DNA from: Flavonifractor porci
Lineage (GTDB): Bacteria > Bacillota > Clostridia > Oscillospirales > Oscillospiraceae
Length of the DNA stretch: 64,000 nt
NCBI RefSeq assembly: GCF_037572415.1
Contig: NZ_JBBHLB010000005.1
Span: 150,050-214,049, forward strand
Direction of reading: 5' to 3'
Shown here: positions 9,726 to 56,747 of the stretch, in pieces
How positions within the stretch are numbered: the stretch's first letter is position 1
How the letters are laid out: each line of letters starts with the position of its first letter
The notes under the pieces: model-generated
Database searches by the model: none
Seen by the model: the letters and a program-made list of their open reading frames with translations, nothing else
Told to the model about the DNA's origin: nothing
Made by a program: the position numbers and the translations under genes

Positions 9726-11237
9726 TTATTCCACAGGCGGCATTCCCGGGCCAATCTCCGGGGTCGGTTCCGGAGCGGGTGTGGCTGCCGGCGTAGGCGC
9801 TGGCGTAGGGGTGGGCACCGGGGTCGCAGACGGCTGAGCGCTTGCCACCGGGGTAGATGTGGGCACCGGGGTTGCCGAGGGCTGAGCACTGGCCGCCGGG
9901 CTGTTACTGGGCTTGGGGGTAGCAGTTACCTCCGGCTTGGGGGTACTGCTGGGCTTGGGGGTGGAGGTGCCGGAACCGCTGGAACTGCTCGAACCAGAGG
10001 AACCGGACGAACTGCCGCCCTGAGGCTTGGCAGCGTAGCTATCCTCCACATATCCTCTGGTGGAGGACAGGGACCCATCATCGTTCACACTCATCAGGTC
10101 CAGCTGATCCAGCCGGATGTCTTCCAAATAGGGATTAAAGTAGGTGTTGATCATCTCCAGGGTCTGATTCTGGATGGGGGTCACATAGGACTGCTTGTTG
10201 CCTACCGTCCGGCTGTATACCCAGGCGCCCTCACAAGGCAGAGTCATGAAGTTGACGTTCTCCATGCTCAGCCCGCCCAGAATGGCCTCCTGGGCAAACC
10301 AGGCCAGGTTATTCACGGTAAGGGTACCGCGGGTATCCACATTGTTAAAAAAGATCTGGGCCAGGGCGGGGATCTTGTCCACAGTCAGGTTGTTCAGACA
10401 GGTCTCGATGACCGCTTTCAGGAAATCCTGCTGGGTCTGAATGCGGCCCAGATCGCCGGAGGGATAGCCGCCGTAGACGATCAGCTTGCCGTTTTCAATC
10501 TTGTTGTTCTTCCGCCAGCGCAGCAGCTGCATGGCCTCGTCACCGTCGATCTCCTGGGGACCGGCTTTCAGATGGATGTAGAGATCCTGAGTGCCGTCAT
10601 CATAATTCATATCATAGGGCACGTCAAACCACACCGGCCCGATGGCGTCCACCAACTCGCCCACAGCCTCCCATTCCACCACCATGGTGAAGTCGGGCTG
10701 GAATCCGATGAGGTAGGAGATCTCCTCCTTCAAATAGTCGATGCCGTCCTTGTCATACTTGGGAGCCCAGTTGTAGACGGAATTGATCTTCTTCACGTCC
10801 CAGGGCACATTGACCATGGTATCACGGGGAATATTCAGCACATTGAGCTGCTGGTTGGGAATGTCGTAGGACATGACCATAATGGTGTCGGTGTTGCCGC
10901 CGCCGCCGGTATCCCGTCCCACCACCAGGAAGGTGTAGAACTCCTCCTTCCGGTCGCCGGACAGTTTGGGTCCCGTCATCTCCATTCCGGCAGAGGCCTG
11001 AGCGTCGGGCGGGGTCACACTGGGAATCTGCGGCTTGACCACCAGGAGTTTATAAGCGACGAACAAAACCACAATCAGTGCAGCGATGACCGTCAATACA
11101 ATAAAGAAAATGCGCAGCGCCTTTTCCTTTGGGGAGCGCTGGGGCTTCGGCTTTTTCTGCTTGGGGGCTTTGGGCGGCTTTTGCTCTTTCGCGAGCCGGG
11201 CGCCGCCGCGGCTGTTCTTTTTCTCTTCCGGGTTCAT
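9726..11237 (-). CDS. LCP (LytR-CpsA-Psr) family cell-envelope phosphotransferase with Pro/Thr/Ser-rich tail
   Basis: N-terminal TM followed by FLVVGRDTGGGGNTDTIMVMSYD...LNIPRDT, the LCP core. The C-terminus carries a PT-rich tandem repeat (ASAQPSATPVPT, two copies). Confidence 0.85.
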   Translation of the reverse strand: MNPEEKKNSRGGARLAKEQKPPKAPKQKKPKPQRSPKEKALRIFFIVLTVIAALIVVLFVAYKLLVVKPQIPSVTPPDAQASAGMEMTGPKLSGDRKEEFYTFLVVGRDTGGGGNTDTIMVMSYDIPNQQLNVLNIPRDTMVNVPWDVKKINSVYNWAPKYDKDGIDYLKEEISYLIGFQPDFTMVVEWEAVGELVDAIGPVWFDVPYDMNYDDGTQDLYIHLKAGPQEIDGDEAMQLLRWRKNNKIENGKLIVYGGYPSGDLGRIQTQQDFLKAVIETCLNNLTVDKIPALAQIFFNNVDTRGTLTVNNLAWFAQEAILGGLSMENVNFMTLPCEGAWVYSRTVGNKQSYVTPIQNQTLEMINTYFNPYLEDIRLDQLDLMSVNDDGSLSSTRGYVEDSYAAKPQGGSSSGSSGSSSSSGSGTSTPKPSSTPKPEVTATPKPSNSPAASAQPSATPVPTSTPVASAQPSATPVPTPTPAPTPAATPAPEPTPEIGPGMPPVE

Positions 11238-15035: not shown

Positions 15036-15095
15036 TTATTTGATATGCAGTTCTTTTTCCACATCGTTCAGGTTGATGGTGAGCATCCGGCTGAT
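15036..15095 (-). pseudogene. orphan second copy of the smc 3' terminus (19 codons plus stop)
   Basis: Encodes ISRMLTINLNDVEKELHIK* against VSRMLTINLNDVEKELHIK* for the functional end at 15258-15317. There are 8 nt differences: 6 synonymous, 1 Val/Ile and 1 TGA/TAA. Confidence 0.85.
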
Positions 15096-15257
15096 CCCCC
15101 GCCCAGCCAAGGCTGGGCGGGGACCCCTTGATTTTACTCAAATCGCCGGAAATGAATCCCGGCGATTTCAAGGTTTTTCCCCAGGGCAAAACACTTGACG
15201 GCGCAAGCGCCGCCCCGCCTTCGGCGGGTGGGCGTCAGCCACCAACCCGTAAAGATA
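15096..15257 (-). repeat. multi-hairpin repeat element, copy 1 (3' of smc)
   Basis: Shares the conserved core with copies at 21858-22005, 42821-42940 and 47183-47332 (GGGGTCCCC, a TTCAT-loop hairpin, a GTTTT/AAAAC hairpin). It contains GGGCGTCAGCC (15230-15240), the reverse complement of smc 15311-15321. Confidence 0.85.
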
Positions 15258-18200
15258 TCACTTAATGTGCAGTTCTTTCTCCACATCGTTCAGGTTGATA
15301 GTCAGCATCCGGCTGACGCCCTGCTCCTGCATGGTGACGCCATAGAGGACATCCGCTTCCTCCATGGTACCGCGGCGGTGGGTGATGACGATAAACTGAG
15401 TCTTGTCCGCCATCTGCCGCATATAGTGGGCAAAGCGCACCACGTTGGCGTCGTCCAGGGCGGCCTCGATCTCGTCCATCACTACAAAGGGAGTGGGCCG
15501 CACCTTCAGAATGGCAAAATAGAGGGCGATGGCCACGAAGGCCTTCTCGCCGCCGGACAGCAGGGAGAGCACCTTCAGCGCCTTGCCGGGGGGCTGCACC
15601 TTGATCTCGATGCCGCAGTTGAGGATATCATTGGGGTCCTCCAGCTCCAGAGTGGCCTTACCGCCCTGGAACAGCTCCGTAAAGGTCTGCTGGAAAGACT
15701 CGTTGAGCACGGCAAACTGCTTGGCAAAGATAGCGCGCATCTCCTCCGTGATATCGGCGATGATGCCCTCCAGCTCCTTTTTGGACTTCTGCACATCGTC
15801 CCGCTGGTCGGTGAGGTAGGTATAGCGCTCGTTGATACGCTGGAACTCGTCGATGGCGTCCAGGTTGATGTTGCCCAGAGAGGAAATGGACTTTTTCAGC
15901 TCTCCCACCCGGCGCTGGGCCTTGGGGACGCTCTCCAGCTCCACCCGCTGGGCCATGGCCGCCTGGTGGGACAGCTCGTAGGTCTCCCACAGCTTCTCCA
16001 GCAGGTTCTTCTCCTCCATGGCGGCGGCAGCCTTCTTCTGCTCCAGCACCGACACCTCCCGCTCCAGGTTGAGCAGGGCGCTGTTCTTGTCCCGGGCATC
16101 CTTGTCTGCCTGGTTGCGCTGGGCCTCCAGGGCCAGTTTCTCGTCGTTGATGCGGCTGATGGCGGCCTGGCGGTCCTGGTTTTCCAGTCGGATGTCCTGG
16201 AGCTGACGCTCCTTCTCCGCAATCTCCCGCTCCAGATCGGCGTTCTTCTCCTGGAACTGGGTAAGCATCCGCTCTCGCTCGGCCTTGTCGCCGGTCAGAT
16301 CCCGGCGCAGCTCTTCCAGTTCGGTCATGGACTTCCGGGCGGCCTGGGCCTCCGCCTCCAGGGCGGCCAGACGCATATTCAGTTCGGCAATGGCCTCGCC
16401 CAAAGCCGTAGCCTTCTCCTGGGCTTCGCTCTGGCCTCTGGCCTTACCCTCCGCCTCGGCCCGCAGGGCGGCGGCGGCTCCCTCCAGGGACTCCACCCGG
16501 GCGCGGGCGGCACGGGTATCCGCCTCGATCTGGGCAGAACGTGCCTGGAGCTGTTCCAGCTCACTCTTCTGGTCGGCACGCTGCTTCTTCAAATCGGCCA
16601 GCTGGGTATCCAAATGGCCCAGGCGCTCCTCCAGCTTAAGGATGTCGTCCTCATGGCGGCGCTGCTGGGCCTGAGCCGTCTCCATCTCGTAGGCGGCGGC
16701 GGTAGCCTCCCGCTTGGCCTCCTCCATGACGTGGGCCGCGTCGGCCAGCTGCTGGGCCACGCCGGTGCGCTGCTGAGCCAGCCGCTCCAACTCGTTGGCC
16801 CGGCTCAGAATGCCCGCGCTGCGGGACGCCGAACCGCCGGTCATGGAACCGCCGGGGTTGAGCACCTGGCCGTCCAGAGTGACGATCTTAAAGCGGTAGT
16901 TGTATTTGCGGGCCATGGCAATGGCCTTGTCCATATCCTCGGCCACCACGGTGCGGCCCAGCAGGTTGGAAAAGATCTTCTCATACCGGGGATCGAACTG
17001 GATGAGTTCGTTGCCCAGGCCTACAAAGCCGGGTTCCCTGCGCACGCCCTGATCCCGGAAGTCGGAGGGCCGCATGGAGGTCACGGGCAGGAAGGTGCTC
17101 CGGCCGCCGTCCCGGCGCTTCAGGTACTGAATGGCGGCCTTGCCGTCCTCCTCCCGCTCCACCACAATATGCTGCATGGCGCCCCCCAGGGCGATCTCGA
17201 TGGCTACCGTACAGGCGTCAGGCACATGGATGAGTCCGGCTACCGGGCCGTGGATGCCCCGAAGCTGGCCCTTCTTGGCCTCCCCCATCACCAGCTTTAC
17301 CGCTTTGGAGTAGCCCTCATACATCTTTTCCATCTCGGAGAGCATATGGATGCGGGAGTTCAGGGCGTTGTCCTCCATCTGGAGTTTGACGTGGCGCTCC
17401 TCCGCTTCCCTGGCCTTCCGCTGCCGGGTCTCCAGCCGCAGGGCGTAACCGCTGATGATGTTCTGTAAGCTGTCCCGGTCCTCCCTGGCCTGGTCCAGCT
17501 CCTGGGCGGCCTGACGGCGGGTCTCCTCCGCCTCATGGAGCCGCTCCTCACCGGAAGCCAGCTCCTGACGCATGGCCTCGTCCCGGTCCAACACCTCCTG
17601 GGCGGCAGCGGCCAGGGCGGAAATGAGGGCCTTGGCGTCGGCGGCGGAGGCGTTCTCCACCGCCTCCTTCCGGCGCAGGTCCTCCAGCTCCTGGGCAATG
17701 GCCCCGGCGGAGCGGCTGGCGGAGGCAGCCTCATTCTGGCGGTCAGCCAGCTGCTGCCGCAGGCCGGCGGTCTGGCCTTCCAGCTCCTCCAGCCGGGTCT
17801 TGCGCTCCCCGATCTGGGCGGCGATGGAGTCAGCCCGGCCCTCCTGCTGCTCCAGCTCCCGCTGGATGCGGTCCCGGTTCTCCAGGTTGTTCTGAATATT
17901 GGTTTTGAGGACGGCGATAGCGTTTTCCAGGCTGTTGGCATCGGCCTCCCGCTGCATCATTTGGAAGCGGACGCCCTCGGTCTCCACGTCCTTGTCCCGC
18001 ATCTGAGCGGAGAATGCCTCAGCGGCGGCGTACAGGTCCTCCACCTGCTGCTGGACCTCCCCCTTCTGACGGAGGGCATTCTCGTAGTCGGACAGGGTCT
18101 TGCGGGACCCGGAACGAATCTTCTCCAGCTGGTCCAGCCACAGGGAAATCTCCAGCCCACGCAGCTCGTCCCGCAGGATGAGGAACTTCCTGGCCTTCTC

Positions 18201-21125: not shown

Positions 21126-21203
21126 ACGGGCGACCATAAAGGTCGCTCCTACGGGGAAGTTCCGTGCCTCTGCTCGTAGGGGCGACCCTTGTGGTCGCCC
21201 GCG
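21126..21203. repeat. REPIN-like doublet of GGGGCGACC-type palindromic units
   Basis: Unit at 21175-21203 is CGTAGGGGCGACCCTTGTGGTCGCCCGCG. An inverted, slightly diverged copy lies at 21126-21156. The same unit recurs at 23329-23359. Confidence 0.75.
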
Positions 21204-21209
21204 TTCCCC

Positions 21210-21461
21210 TTACCGCCCCTGCTGCCCGTCTGTCAGGGGACGGGGTTCGTCAATCAGGCCCAGCAGATAATCCGCCGACACATTGTAATGCTCACACAGC
21301 TGGGCCAGTTTGGCAAAGGTTGACGCTTTCCGTCCATTTTCCATTTCACCGATCTGATTTGGTTTGATCCCCAGCAATTCTGCCAGCTCCTGCTGAGTCT
21401 CGCCCCGCAGTTTTCGCAGTTCCTTCAACCGTATGCCAAATAACTCGTTGGAGTACACCAA
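21210..21461 (-). CDS. XRE-family helix-turn-helix transcriptional regulator
   Basis: 83 aa. IRLKELRKLRGETQQELAELLGIKPNQIGEMENGRK is the HTH_3 pattern. Confidence 0.85.
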   Translation of the reverse strand: MVYSNELFGIRLKELRKLRGETQQELAELLGIKPNQIGEMENGRKASTFAKLAQLCEHYNVSADYLLGLIDEPRPLTDGQQGR

Positions 21462-21767: not shown

Positions 21768-21788
21768 GGGCCGATGCCCTCATCGGCC

Positions 21789-21860
21789 CTCCACATCCAG
21801 TCCCGCCAGCGCTTCCAAGGCTCGCTTACTCAATTCAGCGTTCTTGTTCCGCTTGTTCCC
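21789..21860 (-). pseudogene. orphan diverged copy of the trmFO 3' terminus
   Basis: Encodes GNKRNKNAELSKRALEALAGLDVEGR* against GKRNKNAELSKRALEMLAGLDVE* for the functional end at 22006-22080. Most differences are synonymous. Confidence 0.8.
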
Positions 21861-22005
21861 CACGGAAATCATATTTCCGTGGGAGCCCCGATCCTTAAAT
21901 CTGCTCGGGCGAAGTGAATTCGCCCGGCATCAAGATTTTGCTTCGCAAAATACTTGGCGCCGCACGGCGGCGGGTCGCTTTCGCTCCCGGGCAAGCGGAC
22001 GCGCC
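21858..22005 (-). repeat. multi-hairpin repeat element, copy 2 (3' of trmFO)
   Basis: Core matches the other copies, with compensatory stem changes. GGGCAAGCGGA (21989-21999) is the reverse complement of trmFO 22068-22078. Confidence 0.85.
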
Positions 22006-23310
22006 TTATTCTACATCCAGTCCCGCCAGCATTTCCAGAGCCCGCTTACTCAATTCGGCATTCTTATTCCGCTTGCCCTTGACCTTATAGCCCAGAGGCG
22101 GGATGATGCCGAAATTCACGTTCATGGGCTGGAAATCGGTAACGCTCTCATTGCTGATATACAGAGCCAGCGCGCCGGTGGCGGTCTCCTGAGGGAAATC
22201 CACCGGCGGCTTGCCGGTGAGCCGCCGGGCCAGCTCCACCGCCGCCAGGAAGCCGGAGGCGGTGGACTCCACATAGCCCTCCACGCCGGTGATCTGCCCG
22301 GCAAAGCAGATACGCGGGTCCTTCTTCACCCGGTAATACCGGTCCAGCAGCCGGGGAGAATCCAGATAGGTGTTGCGGTGCATGACGCCGTAGCGGACAA
22401 ACTCCGCGTTTTTCAGGGCGGGGATCATGGAAAACACCCGCTTCTGCTCCGGCCACTTCAGGTGGGTCTGGAAGCCCACCAGATTGTAGATGGTGCCGTC
22501 AGCGTTATCCCGCCGCAGCTGCACCACAGCGAAGGGCTCCTTGCCGGTCTTGGGGTCCCGCAGACCACGGGGCTTCAGTGGCCCGTAGCACAGGGTCTGC
22601 TTGCCCCGGCGGGCCATGACCTCCACCGGCATACAGCCCTCAAACACATTCTTGTCCTCAAAACCGTGGACCTCCGCCTCCTGGGCGGCACACAGCTCGG
22701 TCCAGAATGCGTCGTACTCCTCCTCGGTCATGGGGCAGTTGATGTAGTCCGGAGTGCCCTTGTCGTAGCGGGAGGCAAAGAAGGCGCTCTCCATGTCCAC
22801 GCTCTCAAAGGTGACCAGAGGGGCGGCGGCGTCAAAGAAGTTGAGGTAGTGGCTCTCCGGGAAGAAATCCTTAATGGCATCCGCCAGCACGTCGGAGGTC
22901 AGGGGCCCGGAGGCCACAATCACGTTGCCCTCTTCGGGAATCCGGGTGACTTCCTCCTCCACCACTGTGATGAGGGGATGATTGCGGATCTTCTCGGTGA
23001 TGGCCTGAGCAAAGCCGTGGCGGTCCACCGCCAGGGCGCCGCCGGCCTCCACCCTGTGCTCGTCGGCGCAGGACAGGATGAGGGAACCCATCCGCCGCAG
23101 CTCCTCCTTCAGCAGGCCCACCGCGTTCTCCAGCTGGTCGGAGCGCAGGGAGTTGGAGCACACCAGCTCGCCGAACCACTGGGTGTGGTGGGCGGGGGTC
23201 ATTTTGTGGGGCTTCATTTCCTTCAGGATCACGGGGATGCCCCGCCGGGCCAGCTGCCACGCAGCCTCACACCCGGCCAGACCCGCGCCGATCACGCGTA
23301 CAGGTTCCAT
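22006..23310 (-). CDS. trmFO: methylenetetrahydrofolate--tRNA-(uracil-5-)-methyltransferase
   Basis: VIGAGLAGCEAAWQLA FAD-binding N-terminus; 434 aa; conserved topA-trmFO synteny. Confidence 0.95.
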   Translation of the reverse strand: MEPVRVIGAGLAGCEAAWQLARRGIPVILKEMKPHKMTPAHHTQWFGELVCSNSLRSDQLENAVGLLKEELRRMGSLILSCADEHRVEAGGALAVDRHGFAQAITEKIRNHPLITVVEEEVTRIPEEGNVIVASGPLTSDVLADAIKDFFPESHYLNFFDAAAPLVTFESVDMESAFFASRYDKGTPDYINCPMTEEEYDAFWTELCAAQEAEVHGFEDKNVFEGCMPVEVMARRGKQTLCYGPLKPRGLRDPKTGKEPFAVVQLRRDNADGTIYNLVGFQTHLKWPEQKRVFSMIPALKNAEFVRYGVMHRNTYLDSPRLLDRYYRVKKDPRICFAGQITGVEGYVESTASGFLAAVELARRLTGKPPVDFPQETATGALALYISNESVTDFQPMNVNFGIIPPLGYKVKGKRNKNAELSKRALEMLAGLDVE

Positions 23311-23328
23311 AGGTTCTCCTTTTCAGCC

Positions 23329-23359
23329 CGTAGGGGCGACCCTTGCGGCCGCCCCTACG
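23329..23359. repeat. single GGGGCGACC-type REP-like hairpin overlapping the topA stop codon
   Basis: CGTAGGGGCG-ACCCTTGCGGC-CGCCCCTACG. The topA TAG (23357-23355) lies in the right arm. Confidence 0.75.
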
Positions 23360-25676
23360 ATTCCGCTTTCTGTTTGGCGGCAGGCTTCCTGGCCGCCGTC
23401 TTTTTTGTTGTGGTCTTTTTGGCGGCGGCAGTCTTTTTGGCGGCCGTCGTCTTCTTGGTGGCGGTCTTTTTCGCCGCCGTCTTCTTGGCGGGCTTCTTCT
23501 CCTCCTCGGGGGGAGCGCCCTCCGCAGGAGTCTCCGTGGCGGCGGTGGTCTTTTTCTTATAGCCCCGCTGGTCCTCGGGCAGGAAGTTGGGGCACTCGGG
23601 GTTGATGCAGAAGGGCTTCTTGAACCCACGGCCCGACTTCTTAAACAGGGTATGGCCGCACTCGGGACAGTTGTCCTTCACAGGTACATCCCAGGTCATA
23701 AAGTCGCAGCGGCGGGCCTCATCCTTATTGGAGTTGTTCTCGCAGCCATAATAGGCATAGCCCCGCTTGGAGGTCTTTTTCAGAATCTTGCCGCCGCACT
23801 TGGGGCACTTGCCCGGCATCTCGATGACGATGGGCTGGGTGTGGTCGCACTCCGGCCAGCCGGGACAGGCCAGGAACCTGCCAAACCTGCCGGATTTATA
23901 TACCAGATTGCGGCCGCACTTGGGACAGATCACGTCGGACACCTCGTCGGGCACCTTGATGCGCTCGCCGTCCAGGTCCTGCTCTGCCTGCTTCAGTTCC
24001 TTCTCAAAGCCGCCGTAGAACTGGCTCAGCAGACTCTTCCAGTCCACCTTGCCGGTCTCCACCTCGTCCAGCTGCTCCTCCATGTTGGCGGTGAAGGCGG
24101 TATCCACAATATCGGTGAATTTGTCCTTCATCAGGCCGGTGACCACCTCGCCCAGAGGGGTGGGCCGCAGGTTTTTGCCCTCCTTCACCACATACTCCCG
24201 GTCCAGGATGGTGGAGATGGTGGGGGCGTAGGTGGAGGGGCGTCCGATGCCCTTCTCCTCCAGGGCCTTGATGAGGGTGGCCTCGGTGTAGCGGCTGGGG
24301 GGCTGGGTGAAGTGCTGGTCAGGGGTTAACCCCTTCAGCTCCAGGGGCTCCCCCTCCTTCAGGTCAGGCAGGGGGGACTGGAAAGTCTCGTCCTCCTCGT
24401 CCTTGCCCTCCACGTACACGGCAGTGTAGCCGGAGAACTTGAGGGAGGAGTGGGTGGCCCGGAAGGTATAGCCGGCGGACTCCACCTCGATGGACACGCT
24501 GTCATAGATGGCGGAAGCCATCTGGCAGGCCAGAAAGCGGCTCCAAATCAATTTATAGAGCTTGTACTGCTCGGCGGTGAGGGACTTTTTGATGTCCTCC
24601 GGAGTGAGGGCCACGTTGGAGGGCCGGATGGCCTCGTGGGCGTCCTGGGCCCCCGACTTGGTCTTGTACACCCGGGGCTTGCCGGGGTAGTACTGCTCCC
24701 CGTAACGGGACAGGATGAAATCCCGGGCGGCGGCGGTAGCCTCGTCGGACAGACGGAGGGAATCGGTACGCATATAGGTGATGAGACCCACGGTACCCTC
24801 GCCCTCAATGTCCACGCCTTCATAGAGCTGCTGGGCGATGGACATGGTGCGCCGGGGGGTCATGTTCAGCTTGCGGCTGGCCTCCTGCTGGAGGGTAGAG
24901 GTGATGAAGGGGGGCGCCGGGTTGCGCTGCTTGTCCTGGCGCTTGACGCTCTTCACAGAGAAGGGGGCAGCCTGGACGGCCAGGGCCACTTCCTGAACGG
25001 CCTGTTCGCTGTTCAGTTCCATCTTCTTCTCTCTGCCGTAGAAGCTGGCCTTGAACTGCCCCAGATTGGGGGAGATACGGGCCAGATCGGCCTCCAGGGA
25101 CCAGTATTCCTGAGGCACGAAGGCCTTGATGTCTGCCTCCCGCTCACACACCAGCCTGGTGGCCACCGACTGTACCCGGCCGGCGGACAGGCCCCGGCGG
25201 ATCTTTTTCCACAGCAGGGGGGAGATCTGATAGCCCACGATGCGGTCCAGCACCCTTCTCGCCTGCTGGGCATTGACCAGGTCCATGTCGATGGCACGGG
25301 GGTGGGCGATGGAGTCATTGACCACCTTCTTGGTGATCTCGTTGAAGGTCACCCGGTAGGTCTTGTCGTCAGGAATCCCCAGCATCTCCTTCAGATGCCA
25401 GGAGATGGCCTCTCCTTCCCGGTCAGGGTCGGTGGCCAGAAATACTTTATCGCTCTTCTTGGCGGCCTTGGTCAGGTCGTCGATGACCTCTTCCTTGCCC
25501 TTGATGGGCTGATAGTCCACCGTGAAGTCGTTGTCCACATCCACGCCCAGCTTGCTTTTGGGCAGGTCCCGGACATGGCCCATGGAGGCCTTCACCTGAT
25601 AGCCGGGCCCCAGATATTTGCCAATGGTCTTGGCCTTCGCCGGGGACTCGACGATCACCAGATTCGATTTCGCCAC
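23355..25676 (-). CDS. topA: DNA topoisomerase I with zinc ribbons and a Lys/Thr/Ala-rich tail
   Basis: TOPRIM N-terminus (LVIVESPAKAKTIGKYLG), the active-site region, several C4 zinc ribbons, and a C-terminal KKTAAKKTATKKTTAAKK low-complexity tail. Confidence 0.95.
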   Translation of the reverse strand: MAKSNLVIVESPAKAKTIGKYLGPGYQVKASMGHVRDLPKSKLGVDVDNDFTVDYQPIKGKEEVIDDLTKAAKKSDKVFLATDPDREGEAISWHLKEMLGIPDDKTYRVTFNEITKKVVNDSIAHPRAIDMDLVNAQQARRVLDRIVGYQISPLLWKKIRRGLSAGRVQSVATRLVCEREADIKAFVPQEYWSLEADLARISPNLGQFKASFYGREKKMELNSEQAVQEVALAVQAAPFSVKSVKRQDKQRNPAPPFITSTLQQEASRKLNMTPRRTMSIAQQLYEGVDIEGEGTVGLITYMRTDSLRLSDEATAAARDFILSRYGEQYYPGKPRVYKTKSGAQDAHEAIRPSNVALTPEDIKKSLTAEQYKLYKLIWSRFLACQMASAIYDSVSIEVESAGYTFRATHSSLKFSGYTAVYVEGKDEEDETFQSPLPDLKEGEPLELKGLTPDQHFTQPPSRYTEATLIKALEEKGIGRPSTYAPTISTILDREYVVKEGKNLRPTPLGEVVTGLMKDKFTDIVDTAFTANMEEQLDEVETGKVDWKSLLSQFYGGFEKELKQAEQDLDGERIKVPDEVSDVICPKCGRNLVYKSGRFGRFLACPGWPECDHTQPIVIEMPGKCPKCGGKILKKTSKRGYAYYGCENNSNKDEARRCDFMTWDVPVKDNCPECGHTLFKKSGRGFKKPFCINPECPNFLPEDQRGYKKKTTAATETPAEGAPPEEEKKPAKKTAAKKTATKKTTAAKKTAAAKKTTTKKTAARKPAAKQKAES

Positions 25677-42409: not shown

Positions 42410-42826
42410 TTGTTATCAAGCGCTCTCCTGCTCCTTCTTCTCTTCCTGCTTCTTCTGGAAGCCAGCAAGATCAATCACCTTGGAAGCATTGGAACTAAAA
42501 TCGGGCTGCTCCTTGTACTTTGGGAACTGGGTCTCAAACCAATTCCGCACAAACTTGTAGGGGATGGGCTGCTCCAGGGAGCAGGTCTTGACCACCTCAG
42601 ACTGGGCCAACAGCTCACCAGCATTCTGAAACACGCCCATATACTTCTCCATGTTTGCGCAAGTCAGGTTCTTGTAGGTGCGTTTGCTGGCATTTTTCTT
42701 GATGGTCTTGGTCGCTATCTGAGTACTGGGGAAGTCCTGGCGGTAAGCTCTCCACTCTCTGTATTCAGGAGGGCCGAAGATACGGGTCTGCTTCTTGAAA
42801 GCCTTGCCGTGGTGGGCAATCCCCAT
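42410..42826 (-). CDS. hypothetical ORF whose 5' end is a relic rubrerythrin C-terminus (status uncertain)
   Basis: The first codons, IAHHGKAFKKQTRIFG, parallel the [16 protein letters not shown] end of the neighbouring rubrerythrin. The rest is Lys-rich with no family recognised. An internal ATG (MEKYMGV..) is an alternative start. Confidence 0.35.
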
Positions 42827-42940
42827 GGGACAAATCCCATGGGGACCCCAATGATTTCATCTGCTCGGGCGGAGTGAATCCGCCCGGCTTCGAGGTTTCA
42901 GCTTCGCCAAAACCCTCGGTGACGAGGCCCGCCACGGCAA
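42821..42940 (-). repeat. multi-hairpin repeat element, copy 3 (3' of reverse rubrerythrin)
   Basis: CCCCATGGGA-CAAA-TCCCATGGGG hairpin, GGGGACCCC, a TTCAC-loop hairpin and a GGTTTC..AAACC hairpin. 42921-42940 is the exact reverse complement of rubrerythrin 43022-43041. Confidence 0.85.
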
Positions 42941-42974
42941 AAAAGATCCCGGTCCGTTGGACCGGGATCTTTTA
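42939..42974 (-). terminator. intrinsic terminator of reverse rubrerythrin
   Basis: Minus strand reads AAAAGATCCCGGTCC-AACG-GACCGGGATCTTTTTT, 11 nt after the stop. Confidence 0.85.
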
Positions 42975-42984
42975 GGTATTCAGA

Positions 42985-43527
42985 TTAGCCGAAGTAACGC
43001 TTCAGCAGGCCCTCGAAAGCCTTGCCGTGGCGGGCCTCGTCGCGAGCCATCTCGTGGACGGTGTCGTGGATGGCGTCCAGGTTGTGCTCCTTGGCCAGCT
43101 TGGCCAGCTCGAACTTGCCGGCGGTAGCGCCGTTCTCGGCGTCCACACGCATCTCCAGGTTCTTCTTGGTGGAATCGGTCAGAACCTCACCCAGCAGCTC
43201 GGCAAACTTGGCGGCGTGCTCGGCCTCCTCCAGAGCGGCCTTCTCCCAGTACAGGCCGATCTCGGGGTAGCCCTCACGATGAGCCACACGGCTCATGGCC
43301 AGATACATACCGACCTCGGAGCACTCGCCCTCAAAGTTCATGCGCAGGCCCTGGATGATCTCCTCGGGAGCGCCCTTGGCAACACCGACAACGTGCTCAG
43401 CAGCCCAGGTACGATCGCCACCCTGGAGCACGAACTTCTCCTTGGGAGCCTTACAGATGGGGCAGAAATCAGGGGCGGAATCCCCCTCGTGAACATAACC
43501 GCAAACAGAGCAGACCCACTTTTTCAT
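42985..43527 (-). CDS. reverse rubrerythrin (N-terminal rubredoxin-like domain plus ferritin-like diiron domain)
   Basis: N-terminal [12 protein letters not shown]...CPICKAPK rubredoxin fold, followed by E..EXXH diiron motifs ([32 protein letters not shown]). Confidence 0.9.
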
Positions 43528-45509: not shown

Positions 45510-47120
<1,611 letters not shown>

Positions 47121-47146
47121 GCAACGCCCCCTTATGCTGACTTTCC

Positions 47147-47182
47147 AAGGAGGGACGCGGCAGCGCCGCGTCCCTCCTTTTT
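47147..47182 (+). terminator. intrinsic terminator immediately after gdhA (inside the inserted segment)
   Basis: AAGGAGGGACGCGG-CAGCG-CCGCGTCCCTCCTTTTT. Confidence 0.85.
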
Positions 47183-47332
47183 CGTCGGCCACCGGGGCCC
47201 CATCAAAGATGGGGCGGCGCGCAAGCGCCGTACAAGCGTTTTACCGGCAGGCAAAACCTTAATGCCGGGCGGATTCATTCCGCCCGAGCAGCTCCAATCA
47301 TGGGGTCCCCAACCTGCCCCGCAGGTTGGGGC
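47183..47332 (+). repeat. multi-hairpin repeat element, copy 4 (3' of gdhA)
   Basis: It starts with CGTCGGCCACC, the reverse complement of gdhA 47081-47091. Then come hairpins GCCCCATC/GATGGGGC, GGCGC/GCGCC, GTTTT/AAAAC and CGGGCGGA-TTCAT-TCCGCCCG, followed by GGGGTCCCC and CCCCAACCTGC/GCAGGTTGGGG. Confidence 0.9.
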
Positions 47333-47370
47333 TGGCCGACGCTATGATCTGGCAGGGCGTGTCCTACTAA
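47333..47370 (+). repeat. perfect 38-nt second copy of the gdhA 3' end including the stop
   Basis: 47333-47370 is identical to 47083-47120 (TGGCCGACGCTATGATCTGGCAGGGCGTGTCCTACTAA). Confidence 0.95.
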
Positions 47371-55673: not shown

Positions 55674-56747
55674 ATGAAGAAACTGCTTGCACTGATCCTG
55701 TCCGGTACGCTGACCATGGGCGCACTGTCCGCCTGCGGCAGCACGGCGGTGGTGGCTGTCCCCCAGCCTGAGGAATCTGCGCCCGCCGTCACCGAACCGG
55801 TTCCGGAACACACGCAAGGTACATCGGATGCCGCGGTCAAAACCGGCCTCTATCTGGGCACCAGCTTGTCCAGCAGCAAAAATGCCGCCGACGGCGAGGA
55901 TGGATACAGCCAGGCCAACGTCGAACTGGTGGCGGTCACTGTGACCGACGAAGGGGTCATCGACTCCTGCGTGATCGACTCCATCCAGGCAAAGGCCTCC
56001 TTTGACGCCACCGGAACCCTGACTGCCGACCTGACCGCCCAGGTGCCCTCCAAAAACGAGCTGGGCAGCAATTACGGTATGGGCCAGGTCAGTTCCATCG
56101 GCAAGGAGTGGAACGAACAGGTTCAGGCTCTGGCCGATTACGTAGAGGGCAAGACGGTGGAGGAGATCAAGGGCATCGCCGTGACCGAGGAGGGCAAGGC
56201 CTCCGACGCGGATCTGGCCGCCTCCGTTACCGTCTCCATCGCCGGCTATCTGGACGCCATTGAGCAGGCGGTTTCCAACGCCACTCATCTTGGCGCCATG
56301 CAGGGAGATCGTCTGGTTCTGACCACCTCCACCAACATTGCCAACAGCAAGAGCGCCACCGCTGAGGAGCCCGGCCAGGTCCAGACCTCCGCCACTGTGG
56401 CCGCCGTTACCCTGAGCGGCGACGTGATCACCAGCTGCTACATCGACGCTGTCCAGGCCAATGTGGACTTTGATGCTGCCGGCGTGATCACCACCGACCT
56501 GACCGCGGCGCCGCCCACCAAAAATGAGCTGGGCGACAACTACGGCATGGGCCAGATCAGCCCCATCGGCAAGGAATGGAATGAGCAGGTGGCTGCCTTC
56601 TGCGCGTATGTGACCGGCAAGACCCTGAACCAGGTGGCGGGGATCGCCGTGACCGAAAAGGGCGCTGCCGCCGACGCAGACCTGGCCGCCTCGGTCACCA
56701 TCGCCATCGGGGAGTTCCAGGCCCTGATTGCAAAAGCCGCCGCCTGA
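55674..56747 (+). CDS. lipoprotein with two tandem FMN_bind-like domains
   Basis: AGGAGG RBS. Lipobox (MGALSAC-GS). There is an internal duplication: aa approx. 80-205 and 225-357 both contain V.VT...G.I.SC.ID..QA...FDA.G....DLTA..P.KNELG.NYGMGQ.S.IGKEWNEQV...V.GKT......GIAVTE.G...DADLAASVT..I. Confidence 0.7.
   Translation: MKKLLALILSGTLTMGALSACGSTAVVAVPQPEESAPAVTEPVPEHTQGTSDAAVKTGLYLGTSLSSSKNAADGEDGYSQANVELVAVTVTDEGVIDSCVIDSIQAKASFDATGTLTADLTAQVPSKNELGSNYGMGQVSSIGKEWNEQVQALADYVEGKTVEEIKGIAVTEEGKASDADLAASVTVSIAGYLDAIEQAVSNATHLGAMQGDRLVLTTSTNIANSKSATAEEPGQVQTSATVAAVTLSGDVITSCYIDAVQANVDFDAAGVITTDLTAAPPTKNELGDNYGMGQISPIGKEWNEQVAAFCAYVTGKTLNQVAGIAVTEKGAAADADLAASVTIAIGEFQALIAKAAA

What the first reader, a model, noticed from the sequence alone, without database searches (positions are those of the whole stretch)
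42797..43041. Reverse rubrerythrin: element copy with a 20-nt antisense match and a strongly diverged orphan C-terminus
**Seen directly**
- In gene direction the order is: rubrerythrin stop (42985), terminator (42974-42939), then 42940-42921, which is the exact reverse complement of the coding segment GACGAGGCCCGCCACGGCAA (43041-43022, encoding DEARHGK).
- This is followed by the conserved core and the CCCCATGGGA/TCCCATGGGG hairpin.
- Next comes a second rubrerythrin-like end. GAAAGCCTTGCCGTGG is identical at 42797-42812 and 43014-43029.
- The peptide reads AHHGKAFKKQTRIFG against [16 protein letters not shown].
- In this copy the antisense segment replaces the GGCGC/GCGCC hairpin present in the other copies.
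- The orphan end has no stop and reads on into ORF 42410-42826.

**Inference**
The length of the target-matching segment is variable (11 to 20 nt). The orphan end comes from a much more divergent rubrerythrin allele, or from a paralog.
Basis: partly seen in the sequence, partly recalled or inferred. Interest (0 to 1): 0.7.

Follow-up and report, generated by a model that had tools for sequence, protein, structure and literature searches.

The report
Gene-end mobile element with antisense guide
Behind a rubrerythrin gene sits one copy of a small structured repeat, common in gut Oscillospiraceae, that carries an antisense copy of its own insertion site and a spare copy of the gene's end; it looks like an undescribed kind of site-specific mobile element, and the "diverged orphan C-terminus" is really a 21-nt stub fused to the truncated neighbouring gene.

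Summary
The 20-nt inverted match (42921-42940 vs 43022-43041) and the 16-nt direct match are exact and not chance.

The region is one of exactly four copies in the window of a ~105-165-nt element with three covarying helices and no Rfam match. In 115 Oscillospiraceae loci the anatomy recurs: gene, carried gene end (Y), stop with or without a terminator, antisense segment, scaffold, terminal hairpin, then the displaced native gene end (Y').

- 47 of 87 elements have an exact antisense match of 9 nt or more (control 7 of 261). It is almost always centred on the duplication junction.
- Y/Y' differences are 73.5% third-codon-position. The two ends are therefore diverged functional alleles, meaning the unit moves between alleles.

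It is 21 nt of rubrerythrin end fused, through a shared 13-nt microhomology, to a 5'-truncated neighbouring gene (orfX, a real family of 146-153 aa). Related strains show empty, tandem and deleted states.

Most likely this is a non-autonomous, guide-directed homing unit. The enzyme, the intermediate (RNA or ssDNA) and the origin of new guides are unknown.

The parts
42985..43527 (-). Reverse rubrerythrin gene (host/target gene), intact, 180 aa
   Evidence: ORF list; Pfam RUBY_RBDX 1.2e-16 and Rubrerythrin 2e-11
43022..43041 (-). Target segment in the coding sequence (DEARHGK), complementary to the antisense segment. The duplication junction lies inside it, between 43036 and 43035 (gacgag|gcccgcc).
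   Evidence: junction from comparison with the right flank
42985..43035 (-). Y: the gene end now attached to the gene (GCCCGCCACGG...TTCGGCTAA). This part is duplicated in orthologous loci and probably arrived with the element.
42941..42984 (-). Spacer (I): a short 3' UTR plus an intrinsic-terminator hairpin and T-run. It differs from the native terminator seen at empty loci.
42921..42940 (-). Antisense (guide-like) segment TTGCCGTGGCGGGCCTCGTC, 20/20 complementary to 43022-43041
   Evidence: family statistics
42891..42918 (-). Core helix P1 (CGAGG-GTTTTGG / CTGAAAC-CTCG, one bulged base), covarying across the family
   Evidence: pairs 3-38, 7-35, 11-31, 12-30, 13-29 with compensatory changes
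42863..42888 (-). Core helix P2 (CCGGGCGG / CCGCCCG) with the conserved loop ATTCAYT
   Evidence: pairs 47-61, 48-60, 50-58 compensatory
42818..42862 (-). A-rich linker, GGGG-T, the variable-sequence terminal hairpin (42821-42844) and a 3-nt tail ATT. This is the constant 3' end of the element.
   Evidence: right junction always 40-56 nt after the core pattern
42797..42817 (-). Orphan stub: 21 nt of displaced rubrerythrin end (GCCCACCACGGCAAGGCTTTC). Its last 9 nt (13 nt in relatives) are shared with orfX and mark the deletion junction.
42416..42796 (-). 5'-truncated orfX (a family of 146-153-aa hypothetical proteins, lacking its first ~20 codons), fused in frame to the stub. The called ORF 42416-42826 starts at an ATG inside the element's terminal hairpin.
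21780..22078 (-). Window copy A at the end of a GIDA-family (TrmFO-like) gene. Target 22068-22078; Y 22006-22075; antisense 21989-21999; scaffold to 21858; tail 21856-21857; orphan Y' 21780-21855.
   Evidence: (D5)
15036..15321 (-). Window copy B at the end of smc, followed by ftsY. Target 15311-15321; Y 15258-15316; antisense 15230-15240; scaffold to 15096; orphan Y' 15036-15094.
   Evidence: (D7)
47081..47370 (+). Window copy C at the end of a glutamate dehydrogenase gene. Target 47081-47091; Y 47083-47120; spacer with terminator; antisense 47183-47193; scaffold 47194-47331; orphan Y' 47333-47370, followed by the native terminator.
   Evidence: (D6)

Best explanation
The region is one member of a family of small, non-autonomous, site-specific mobile units of gut Oscillospiraceae.

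**Anatomy of a unit**
- A copy of the last 25-106 nt of a gene (Y), with its stop and sometimes a terminator.
- An antisense segment complementary to the gene sequence at the exact point where Y begins.
- A ~105-150-nt scaffold of three conserved helices that ends in a hairpin plus 0-4 nt.

**What the unit does**
- It sits between the body of the gene and the gene's displaced native end (Y').
- The gene stays intact because the unit brings its own gene end.
- The antisense segment most likely serves as the guide that picks the insertion point.
- The conserved scaffold most likely binds a trans-acting enzyme that is not encoded nearby.

**Preferred route (inferred, not shown)**
- The scaffold works as RNA, read through from the host gene.
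- The guide pairs with the sense strand of an empty allele, and the opposite strand is nicked at the junction.
- The nicked end anneals to the y' sequence that follows the element in the donor transcript and primes reverse transcription of the co-transcript. This geometry resembles a prime-editing guide RNA.
- The gene-homologous 5' part of the copy resolves the left side by homology.

**The rubrerythrin copy**
- It has the longest intact guide (20 nt).
- Afterwards, a deletion between the 13-nt repeat CAAGGCTTTCGAG in the orphan and in the neighbouring gene orfX removed the rest of the orphan, the intergenic region and the first ~20 codons of orfX. That deletion created the apparent "diverged orphan".

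**Graded confidence**
- Anatomy and family membership: about 0.95.
- Chimeric orphan: about 0.9.
- Movement between diverged alleles: about 0.8.
- Antisense segment acts as an insertion guide: about 0.55.
- RNA plus reverse-transcription route: about 0.25.
For: **Family and structure**
- A degenerate core pattern hits more than 115 stretches, all but one labelled Oscillospiraceae or unclassified Clostridia (one Anaerovibrio-labelled MAG contig, L018) and none in viral contigs.
- nhmmer finds exactly 4 copies in the window.
- There is no Rfam family at gathering or E-value thresholds.
- 15 of 28 consensus pairs carry compensatory changes in three helices.
- G.U outnumbers A.C 64 to 14 on the gene-sense strand, mostly at one conserved G.U at the base of the terminal hairpin.

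**Flanks**
- 107/116 elements have the Y/Y' direct repeat, and Y' starts right after the terminal hairpin.
- About 78/87 lie at the 3' end of a co-oriented long ORF, with the junction 25-106 nt before the stop.

**Guide**
- 47/87 elements have an exact antisense match of 9 nt or more, against 7/261 in controls, and the match is centred on the junction.
- It matches the uninterrupted gene (X|Y) better than the right junction in 36 of 45 loci.
- Where Y and Y' differ, it matches Y rather than Y' 16 times to 4.
- It lies 0-4 nt upstream of the first scaffold hairpin.
- Empty rubrerythrin loci (L122, L124) have no antisense segment, so it arrived with the element.

**Movement between alleles**
- 150/204 Y/Y' differences are at third codon positions (p = 1e-17 against a pseudogene-decay expectation of 0.44).
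- 141 differing codons are synonymous and 43 non-synonymous.
- The native downstream sequence follows the second (orphan) copy.

**Target stays intact after insertion**
- Tandem arrays occur in at least 11 loci, including strain L119 at this very gene.

**Strain states with an identical rubrerythrin protein**
- Occupied (L116, L118), tandem (L119), element deleted with an antisense remnant left (L117, L120, L121) and empty (L122).

**Chimeric orphan**
-.
Against: - No enzyme was identified. There is no reverse transcriptase, HUH transposase or nuclease signature in the window, and no protein recurs next to elements except housekeeping target genes.
- 40/87 elements have less than 9 nt of exact antisense, and some (L019, L036) have none visible.
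- The antisense segment does not co-vary with the resident target in orthologous copies. There is also no G.U excess in its pairing. It is therefore not maintained as a cis RNA helix, and an RNA guide is not specifically indicated.
- In this copy and in copy C a strong terminator lies between the gene and the element, which would limit co-transcription.
- No conserved PAM/TAM-like motif flanks the targets.
- No model tried explains how a new guide plus a new gene end arise for a new target.
- Spread between alleles could in principle be done by ordinary homologous recombination alone.
Confidence: 0.5

Rival explanations
1. The anatomy is the same, but the element moves as single-stranded DNA by an IS200/IS605-like peel-and-paste reaction. 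A trans-acting Y1 (HUH) transposase recognises the strand-specific hairpins. The sequence just 5' of the first hairpin (the antisense segment) pairs with the left cleavage and target site, as the 4-nt guide sequences of IS608 do, only longer.
For: - The structured strand is always the same one.
- In the longer variants both ends carry the same module in direct orientation, GGGG-(N)-CCCC...GGGG.
- The guide lies immediately 5' of the first hairpin foot.
- Pairing is strictly Watson-Crick with no wobble excess.
- A terminator upstream of the element is no obstacle for a DNA mechanism.
- RAYT-like Y1 transposase ORFs exist in these genomes, and in L001, L053 and L057 they lie directly downstream of an smc element.
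- Elements at the 5' ends of opposite-strand genes still tend to lie on the G-rich strand, in 9 of 11 cases (5 of 7 independent target groups).
Against: - IS200/IS605 elements insert 3' of one fixed 4-5-nt motif and make no duplication. Here the targets differ and the unit contains 40-150 nt of host DNA between the cleavage site and the guide.
- The multi-helix interior with conserved loops looks more like a protein-binding RNA scaffold than transposon ends.
- The RAYT-like genes have their own GTAG-type REPs and are not flanked by elements on both sides.
- The window contains no such gene.
- The GC-skew evidence is weak and not independent.
Confidence: 0.2
2. The scaffold is a host-beneficial or neutral 3'-UTR RNA or DNA structure. 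The antisense segment is a cis-acting partner that forms a long-range helix with the end of the coding sequence, stabilising the mRNA 3' end or coupling translation to decay. Copies spread only passively, by homologous recombination and unequal crossing-over between strains.
For: - The predicted fold of the rubrerythrin 3' end pairs the 20-nt segment with the coding sequence and encloses the stop and terminator. The z-score is -11.6 against shuffles.
- Elements sit almost only at gene ends.
- Closely related elements (85% identity or more) are always at the same gene in another species, 26 of 26. Transposition between genes is therefore rare.
- The duplicated Y' gives a ready-made right homology arm for recombination.
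Against: - A cis helix under selection should show compensatory or wobble changes. It does not.
- This view does not explain why the antisense target coincides with the start of the duplication in 43 of 47 cases.
- It does not explain why the right junction is always the exact end of the terminal hairpin.
- It does not explain how 47 different genes acquired the same scaffold with a matching antisense segment.
- About 10% of copies are antisense to the adjacent gene.
Confidence: 0.2
3. One reading: the second end is an orphan C-terminus from a much more divergent rubrerythrin allele or a paralogue.
For: - A 16-nt identity exists.
- The peptides look similar: AHHGKAFKKQTRIFG against [16 protein letters not shown].
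- About 61% nucleotide identity holds over 62 nt between the orfX 5' region and the rubrerythrin 3' end.
Against: - The sequence from KAF onward is the conserved N-region of an unrelated 146-153-aa protein family with 188 members.
- It aligns base for base with intact orfX of L124, beginning at codon ~17.
- In L124-L130 orfX lies about 485 nt downstream of rubrerythrin as a separate gene with its own start.
- In other species the rubrerythrin element is followed by a normal orphan with a stop and the native terminator (L051).
Confidence: 0.03
4. A diversity-generating retroelement (template/variable repeat pair) or a simple local tandem duplication.
For: Two similar copies of a gene's 3' end lie about 220-250 nt apart.
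Against: - The differences are not adenine-specific: 194 transitions and 74 transversions of all types. Most are synonymous third-position changes.
- No reverse transcriptase lies nearby.
- A conserved foreign scaffold sits between the copies at 47 different genes.
Confidence: 0.02

Closest known systems
Integrative elements whose attachment site carries the 3' end of the target gene (phages, ICEs and genomic islands in tRNA or protein-gene 3' ends). Stated from general knowledge.
   Same: Insertion lies inside the 3' end of a gene. The element supplies a replacement end, so the gene stays intact, and the native end is left as a displaced direct repeat on the far side.
   Different: Those elements are kilobases long, encode their own integrase, and each family has one protein-recognised site. 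Here the unit is about 200-300 nt with no gene. The same scaffold is found at 47 or more different genes, each with its own matching antisense segment.
IS200/IS605 family (IS608, ISDra2) and their miniature derivatives. Stated from general knowledge; related papers listed.
   Same: The elements are strand-specific, with hairpins at both ends in direct orientation. A guide sequence just 5' of the hairpin foot base-pairs with the cleavage and target site. Excision is precise.
   Different: The guide there is 4 nt and the target is a fixed motif. There is no flanking duplication and no carried host sequence. A TnpA is needed, and none is linked here.
IS110/IS1111 elements with bridge or seek RNAs (general knowledge)
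   Same: The element encodes a structured non-coding RNA-like scaffold containing a programmable segment complementary to the target, so different copies can have different targets.
   Different: Bridge RNAs have two internal loops with split guides for target and donor, and they sit next to a DEDD recombinase gene. Here there is one contiguous antisense segment, no recombinase gene, and the target gene end is carried along.
Guide RNAs with a 5' spacer and 3' scaffold (Cas9 single guides and tracr-L, IscB omega RNA) and engineered prime-editing guide RNAs (general knowledge)
   Same: The order is a spacer-like antisense segment, then a long stem beginning GUUUUG...CAAAAC, then a nexus-like hairpin, then a terminal hairpin. 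The 3' flank (y') is the reverse complement of the 5' part of the antisense segment, as a primer-binding site is to its spacer. The junction falls inside the guide-target duplex, 3-7 nt from its scaffold-proximal end.
   Different: There is no match to tracrRNA, HEARO or other Rfam models. No effector gene lies nearby and no PAM/TAM-like motif was found. In most copies one or two extra hairpins separate the antisense segment from the first stem. Most matches are only about 11 nt.
Site-specific non-LTR retrotransposon R2 and group II intron retrohoming (general knowledge)
   Same: The element is co-transcribed with the host gene. Its 3' end is precise and the 5' side is resolved through host-gene sequence carried on the RNA. 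Base pairing occurs between the element and the target across the insertion site.
   Different: Those elements encode their own reverse transcriptase and endonuclease, or are ribozymes. They do not duplicate the gene end, and no such protein or ribozyme domain was found here.
Mitochondrial free-standing homing-endonuclease genes that insert at gene 3' ends with a foreign copy of the C-terminal coding region (for example Allomyces atp6; recalled from memory, not checked)
   Same: The mobile insert brings a replacement C-terminal coding segment from another lineage, and the original end is left downstream as a remnant.
   Different: Those carry a protein-coding endonuclease and have no antisense guide.

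Membership tests
MITE (miniature inverted-repeat transposable element) | Terminal inverted repeats and a short target-site duplication of fixed length | tested here: not met
   The ends are not inverted repeats of each other. The flanking repeat is 18-170 nt, variable, and allelic rather than identical.
REP/BIME with RAYT | 20-40-nt palindrome preceded by a conserved GTAG-like tetranucleotide, with REPs flanking the RAYT gene | tested here: not met
   The element has no GTAG. Typical GTAG-GGGCGACC palindromes occur separately (window 21176 and 23330; beside and inside the RAYT-like ORFs). RAYT-like ORFs have an element on one side only, in 3 orthologous loci.
IS200/IS605-derived element | Subterminal hairpins on one strand at both ends | tested here: met
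   The terminal hairpin is always present. The longer variants have a similar GGGG-CCCC...GGGG module at the 5' end.
IS200/IS605-derived element | Insertion 3' of one conserved tetra- or pentanucleotide, with no duplication | tested here: not met
   No conserved motif lies at or beside the junction. A long duplication is present in 107 of 116 elements.
IS200/IS605-derived element | Mobilised by a Y1 TnpA encoded by a related autonomous element | not testable with these tools
   No autonomous relative was found. This needs a whole-genome census and biochemistry.
IS110/IS1111 bridge-RNA element | Adjacent DEDD/Tnp recombinase gene, and an RNA with two bipartite guide loops | tested here: not met
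   No ORF lies inside or next to the elements other than host genes. There is a single contiguous antisense segment.
Group II intron | Six-domain ribozyme (domain V), EBS/IBS pairing, and usually an RT ORF | tested here: not met
   No Rfam intron hit. The scaffold is about 105-150 nt with three simple helices.
Diversity-generating retroelement | Template/variable repeats differing at template adenines, with an RT gene nearby | tested here: not met
   The substitution spectrum is not A-specific, 73.5% of differences are at third codon positions, and there is no RT motif.
Cas9 tracr/single-guide or IscB omega RNA | Match to known scaffold models, effector gene in cis, and a PAM/TAM next to targets | tested here: not met
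   There is no Rfam match, even at E <= 10, to such families. No effector is in the window and no flanking motif was found. A trans-encoded effector cannot be excluded.
Intrinsic terminator / ordinary 3' UTR antisense structure | Structure explained by a GC hairpin plus T-run only; no repetition elsewhere | tested here: not met
   A terminator is present, but it is separate from the element. The element recurs in more than 100 loci.
The family described here (Oscillospiraceae gene-end element) | P1 + P2 + terminal hairpin scaffold; antisense segment 0-4 nt upstream; gene end upstream and displaced copy immediately downstream | tested here: met
   For the rubrerythrin copy: nhmmer E = 1.4e-23, a 20-nt antisense segment, a 21-nt remnant of the displaced copy, and orthologous copies at rubrerythrin in 5 or more other genomes.

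The most novel reading that the evidence does not exclude
The element is a natural RNA-guided, self-copying retro-homing unit. A read-through transcript carries, in one molecule, a 5' spacer-like guide, a protein-binding scaffold and a 3' primer-binding stretch (y'). A trans-acting nickase and reverse transcriptase write the whole transcript, replacement gene end included, into empty alleles at the guided position. That would be a natural counterpart of prime editing, used by a gene-less parasite.
Probability: 0.15. Interest if true: 0.95.

Novelty: categorically new. Interest (0 to 1): 0.82.

Why it matters
If the antisense segment is a true guide, this is a gene-less, roughly 200-300-nt mobile unit with three linked properties:
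- It programs its own insertion site by base pairing.
- It avoids harming the host by bringing a spare gene end.
- It colonises dozens of housekeeping genes in abundant human and animal gut bacteria.

Consequences that would follow:
- There would be an unidentified trans-acting enzyme (recombinase, HUH transposase, or nickase plus reverse transcriptase) that accepts a compact, reprogrammable nucleic-acid guide. That is of obvious interest for genome engineering.
- The displaced gene ends are dated fossils of horizontal allele exchange among Oscillospiraceae.
- On the practical side, the elements create chimeric ORFs, such as 42416-42826, that gene callers annotate as proteins.

Tried and rejected
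- **Rfam.** Searches at gathering and permissive thresholds gave only noise.
- **Other collections.** Viral contigs had no copy. Plasmid and phage BLAST gave one unannotated Pusillibacter megaplasmid hit and one short phage-contig hit.
- **Literature.** Five searches (one further query was rejected for syntax) found no description of such an element.
- **Target-site-duplication model** (staggered cuts, both copies from the same allele). Rejected because Y/Y' differences are overwhelmingly synonymous.
- **DGR.** Rejected on the substitution spectrum.
- **PAM/TAM-like motif.** None is convincing: A/A/C at -1/-2/-3 reach only about 40-48%.
- **Associated protein.** Clustering all ORFs of 150 aa or more in 115 loci gave only housekeeping genes plus a RAYT-like Y1 transposase in 4 loci. 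Three of those are orthologous, and the gene has its own GTAG REPs.
- **HUH and RT motifs in the window.** None found.
- **GC skew as a test of replication-strand dependence.** Inconclusive.
- **Wobble excess in the antisense:target pairing, as a test for RNA.** None found.
- **Origin of the antisense segment.** Worked through by reasoning only: snap-back synthesis, hairpin opening, template switching, fold-back priming and primer remnants. None reproduces the observed order X-Y-spacer-antisense-scaffold-Y'.
Full report
**1. The observation**

The sequence is as described. The reverse rubrerythrin gene is 42985-43527 on the minus strand.

In gene direction the order is:
- stop at 42985
- a GC hairpin with a T-run at 42941-42974
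- TTGCCGTGGCGGGCCTCGTC at 42940-42921

That last segment is the exact reverse complement of the coding 20-mer at 43041-43022.

The 16-mer GAAAGCCTTGCCGTGG is exact at 42797-42812 and at 43015-43030. No shuffle of the window reproduces either match.

**2. It is one copy of a repeat family**

Direct-repeat search showed three more places where the end of a gene is duplicated 220-250 nt downstream. It also found a conserved core shared with the rubrerythrin region (families D5, D6, D7, D10).

Read in gene direction, all four copies have the same order:
- gene end
- stop, with or without a terminator
- a short segment antisense to the gene
- 0-2 small GC hairpins
- helix P1 (CAAG-N-GTTTTG...CAAAAC-CTTG)
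- helix P2 (CGGGCGG-ATTCAYT-CCGCCCG)
- an A-rich linker
- GGGG-N and a hairpin CCCC...GGGG of variable sequence
- 0-4 nt
- a second copy of the gene end

The host genes are a GIDA/TrmFO-like gene, smc, glutamate dehydrogenase and rubrerythrin. A profile HMM finds exactly these four copies in the window.

**3. The family elsewhere**

A degenerate 34-nt core pattern hit more than 115 stretches of the species-representative genome collection.

The named genera were Flavonifractor, Pseudoflavonifractor, Oscillibacter, Dysosmobacter, Intestinimonas, Lawsonibacter and relatives, plus contigs labelled only Oscillospiraceae, Clostridiales or Clostridia. One hit is an Anaerovibrio-labelled MAG contig, probably a mis-binned contig. 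Isolate genomes are included. No copy was found in viral contigs.

Rfam has no matching family. Five literature searches found no description.

**4. Structure**

On 35 diverse copies RNAalifold predicts three helices. 15 of 28 pairs show compensatory changes.

On 87 copies G.U/U.G pairs outnumber A.C/C.A 64 to 14. Most of this comes from one conserved G.U (or A-U) near the base of the terminal hairpin. The gene-sense strand is therefore the structured one.

The P2 loop and the P1 bulge are conserved in sequence. This suggests a bound partner.

**5. Flanks, quantified**

- Of 116 elements with enough flank, 107 have the upstream/downstream direct repeat (Y/Y'). Y' starts 40-56 nt after the core pattern, that is, right after the terminal hairpin.
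- About 78 of 87 lie at the 3' end of a co-oriented long ORF, with the junction 25-106 nt before the stop.
- The antisense segment starts -9 to 62 nt after the stop, often directly after it or directly after a terminator T-run.
- About 10% are instead antisense to the 5' end of a gene and duplicate its first codons and leader.

**6. The antisense segment is target-matching, not core**

- 47 of 87 elements have an exact antisense match of 9 nt or more between the spacer region and the junction region. Mismatched element/target pairs give 7 of 261.
- 43 of the 47 matches start at -7..+3 and end at +4..+16 relative to the duplication start.
- The segment lies 0-4 nt upstream of the first scaffold hairpin.
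- It matches the uninterrupted gene better than the right junction in 36 of 45 loci.
- It matches the attached copy Y rather than the orphan at 16 of 20 informative positions, with some alignment bias towards Y.
- Empty rubrerythrin loci have no such segment.

Complementarity extends weakly for 3-5 nt beyond the exact cores. The 20-nt rubrerythrin match is simply the best preserved.

There is no wobble excess. In orthologous copies the antisense segment does not follow synonymous changes of the resident gene. The pairing looks like something used at insertion and then left to decay, not a maintained cis helix.

**7. The unit moves between alleles**

- Y and Y' differ at 150 third, 35 first and 19 second codon positions: 73.5% third position, p = 1e-17 against the 44% expected if the orphan had simply decayed.
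- 141 differing codons are synonymous and 43 are not.
- The spectrum is ordinary, with 194 transitions and 74 transversions, and is not adenine-specific.

Both copies therefore evolved as working gene ends in different lineages.

At an occupied rubrerythrin locus (L051) the native downstream sequence of the empty locus (L124) follows the second copy. The unit gene end + spacer + antisense + scaffold is the insert.

Elements that are 85% or more identical are always at the same gene in another species (26 of 26), and 87 elements occupy 47 different targets. Spread is mainly along orthologous sites, and retargeting is rare.

Tandem arrays in at least 11 loci fit a target that stays intact after insertion.

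**8. The rubrerythrin locus in related strains**

Contigs encoding the identical 180-aa protein show four states:
- the window arrangement (L116, L118)
- two tandem units followed by the same odd orphan (L119)
- terminator plus a degenerate antisense remnant, with the scaffold deleted into orfX (L117, L120, L121)
- an empty allele with a rubredoxin gene 22 nt after the stop (L122)

**9. The orphan is a chimera**

- The 136-aa ORF has 188 homologues, typically 146-153 aa, in Flavonifractor, Intestinimonas and relatives.
- Their alignment shows that KAF..Q.RIFG.PEYREW is the native N-region of this family. It is preceded in intact members by about 17 residues (MKKNAIIYIDDTHAQVT) that the window copy lacks.
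- In L124-L130 the gene (orfX) lies about 485 nt downstream of a rubrerythrin gene.
- Its sequence ...CACGCCCAGGTCACCAAGGCTTTCGAGAAGCAGGCCCGTATCTTCGG... aligns base for base with the window orphan from AAGGCTTTC onward.
- The 12 nt before that in the window (GCCCACCACGGC) are rubrerythrin sequence.
- Rubrerythrin and orfX share CAAGGCTTTCGAG.

The simplest history is a normal element with a normal orphan, followed by a deletion between these 13-nt repeats. That deletion removed the rest of the orphan, the intergenic region and the start of orfX.

That is exactly why the orphan is not a rubrerythrin allele.

**10.

Folded as RNA, 43050-42815 pairs the 20-nt segment with the coding target and encloses the stop and terminator. 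P1, P2 and the terminal hairpin fold as in the family consensus (-145.5 kcal/mol, z = -11.6).

This is a prediction. The lack of covariation argues against a maintained regulatory helix.

**11. Mechanism**

Shown:
- the anatomy
- strand-specific structure
- target-matching antisense at the junction
- horizontal movement with a carried gene end
- intact target after insertion
- loss by deletion

Inferred:
- The antisense segment guides insertion.
- The scaffold binds a trans-acting enzyme.

I favour an RNA scaffold for four reasons:
- a multi-helix interior with conserved loops
- a precise 3' end with a short variable tail
- 5' variants
- a spacer/scaffold/primer-site geometry like a prime-editing guide

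In that route the co-transcript is copied into the nicked target and resolved on the left by homology. This rests on no identified enzyme.

An IS200/IS605-like single-strand DNA route is a serious rival. A cis-regulatory element spreading purely by homologous recombination is a third.

No model explains how a new guide and a new gene end arise together.

**12. Verdict**

The finding is real. It opens onto a family that fails the defining features of MITEs, REPs, IS200/IS605, IS110, group II introns, DGRs and known guide RNAs, though it borrows logic from several of them. I rate it categorically new in architecture, with the mechanism open.

Noticed in passing
window 21171-21215 and 23325-23365: Two classic REP-like units (GTAG + GGGCGACCCTTG(T/C)GG(T/C)CGCCC) unrelated to the element. 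The same type of palindrome occurs beside and even inside RAYT-like ORFs in L001, L053, L057 and L069.
   Followed up: partly
L001 7030-7731(-), L053 4098-4736(+), L057 3847-4371(-), L069 4898-5389(-): RAYT/IS200-like Y1 transposase ORFs (KRKHPRL..YDYS..G.YF.T.CT ... MPNH.H). In three species they lie between smc and ftsY, directly downstream of an smc element and its orphan. This could be coincidence or a lead to the mobilising enzyme.
   Followed up: partly
L115 ~2150, L008 ~2971(-), L040 ~5629, L018: A conserved solo copy lacks the antisense segment and the terminal hairpin. P1-P2 is followed by an intrinsic terminator and a tRNA gene, divergent from a homocysteine-methyltransferase-like gene. 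It could be a dead remnant or a stand-alone expressed copy.
   Followed up: no
all Y/Y' pairs: There is a directional bias in the differences. The attached copy Y has A/T where the orphan has G/C 123 times, against 71 for the reverse (T>C 68 vs C>T 34; A>G 55 vs G>A 37). This could reflect deamination or copying errors in a single-stranded or RNA intermediate, or simply lower-GC donors.
   Followed up: no
window 42416-42826(-) and L124 2501-2956: orfX is a conserved 146-153-aa protein family with no Pfam domain, and it repeatedly lies downstream of rubrerythrin. Its 5' region resembles the rubrerythrin 3' end plus UTR beyond the 13-nt identity (about 61% over 62 nt, including CGT-A-C-TTCGG and GAATAC), which hints at an old conversion between the neighbours.
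   Followed up: partly
L122 864-995: A strain with the identical rubrerythrin protein has a rubredoxin gene 22 nt after the stop instead of the element and orfX. The region downstream of rubrerythrin is therefore a rearrangement hot spot.
   Followed up: no
window 55956-56709: Two tandem 468-nt repeats at 73-77% identity lie inside a coding region (repeat families D1 and D3). They probably represent a duplicated protein domain.
   Followed up: no
window 9772-9897: Short 18-30-nt periodic repeats rich in GGNG(T/C)NGG lie on the + strand (family D2), probably a low-complexity coding repeat on one of the strands.
   Followed up: no
L119 3044-3560: In the tandem rubrerythrin array the copy nearest the gene keeps all helices. 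The older downstream copy has broken P1 (CCAAG opposite CCTCG) and a 1-nt deletion in the terminal hairpin. Structure therefore seems to be maintained only in the active, gene-proximal copy.
   Followed up: partly
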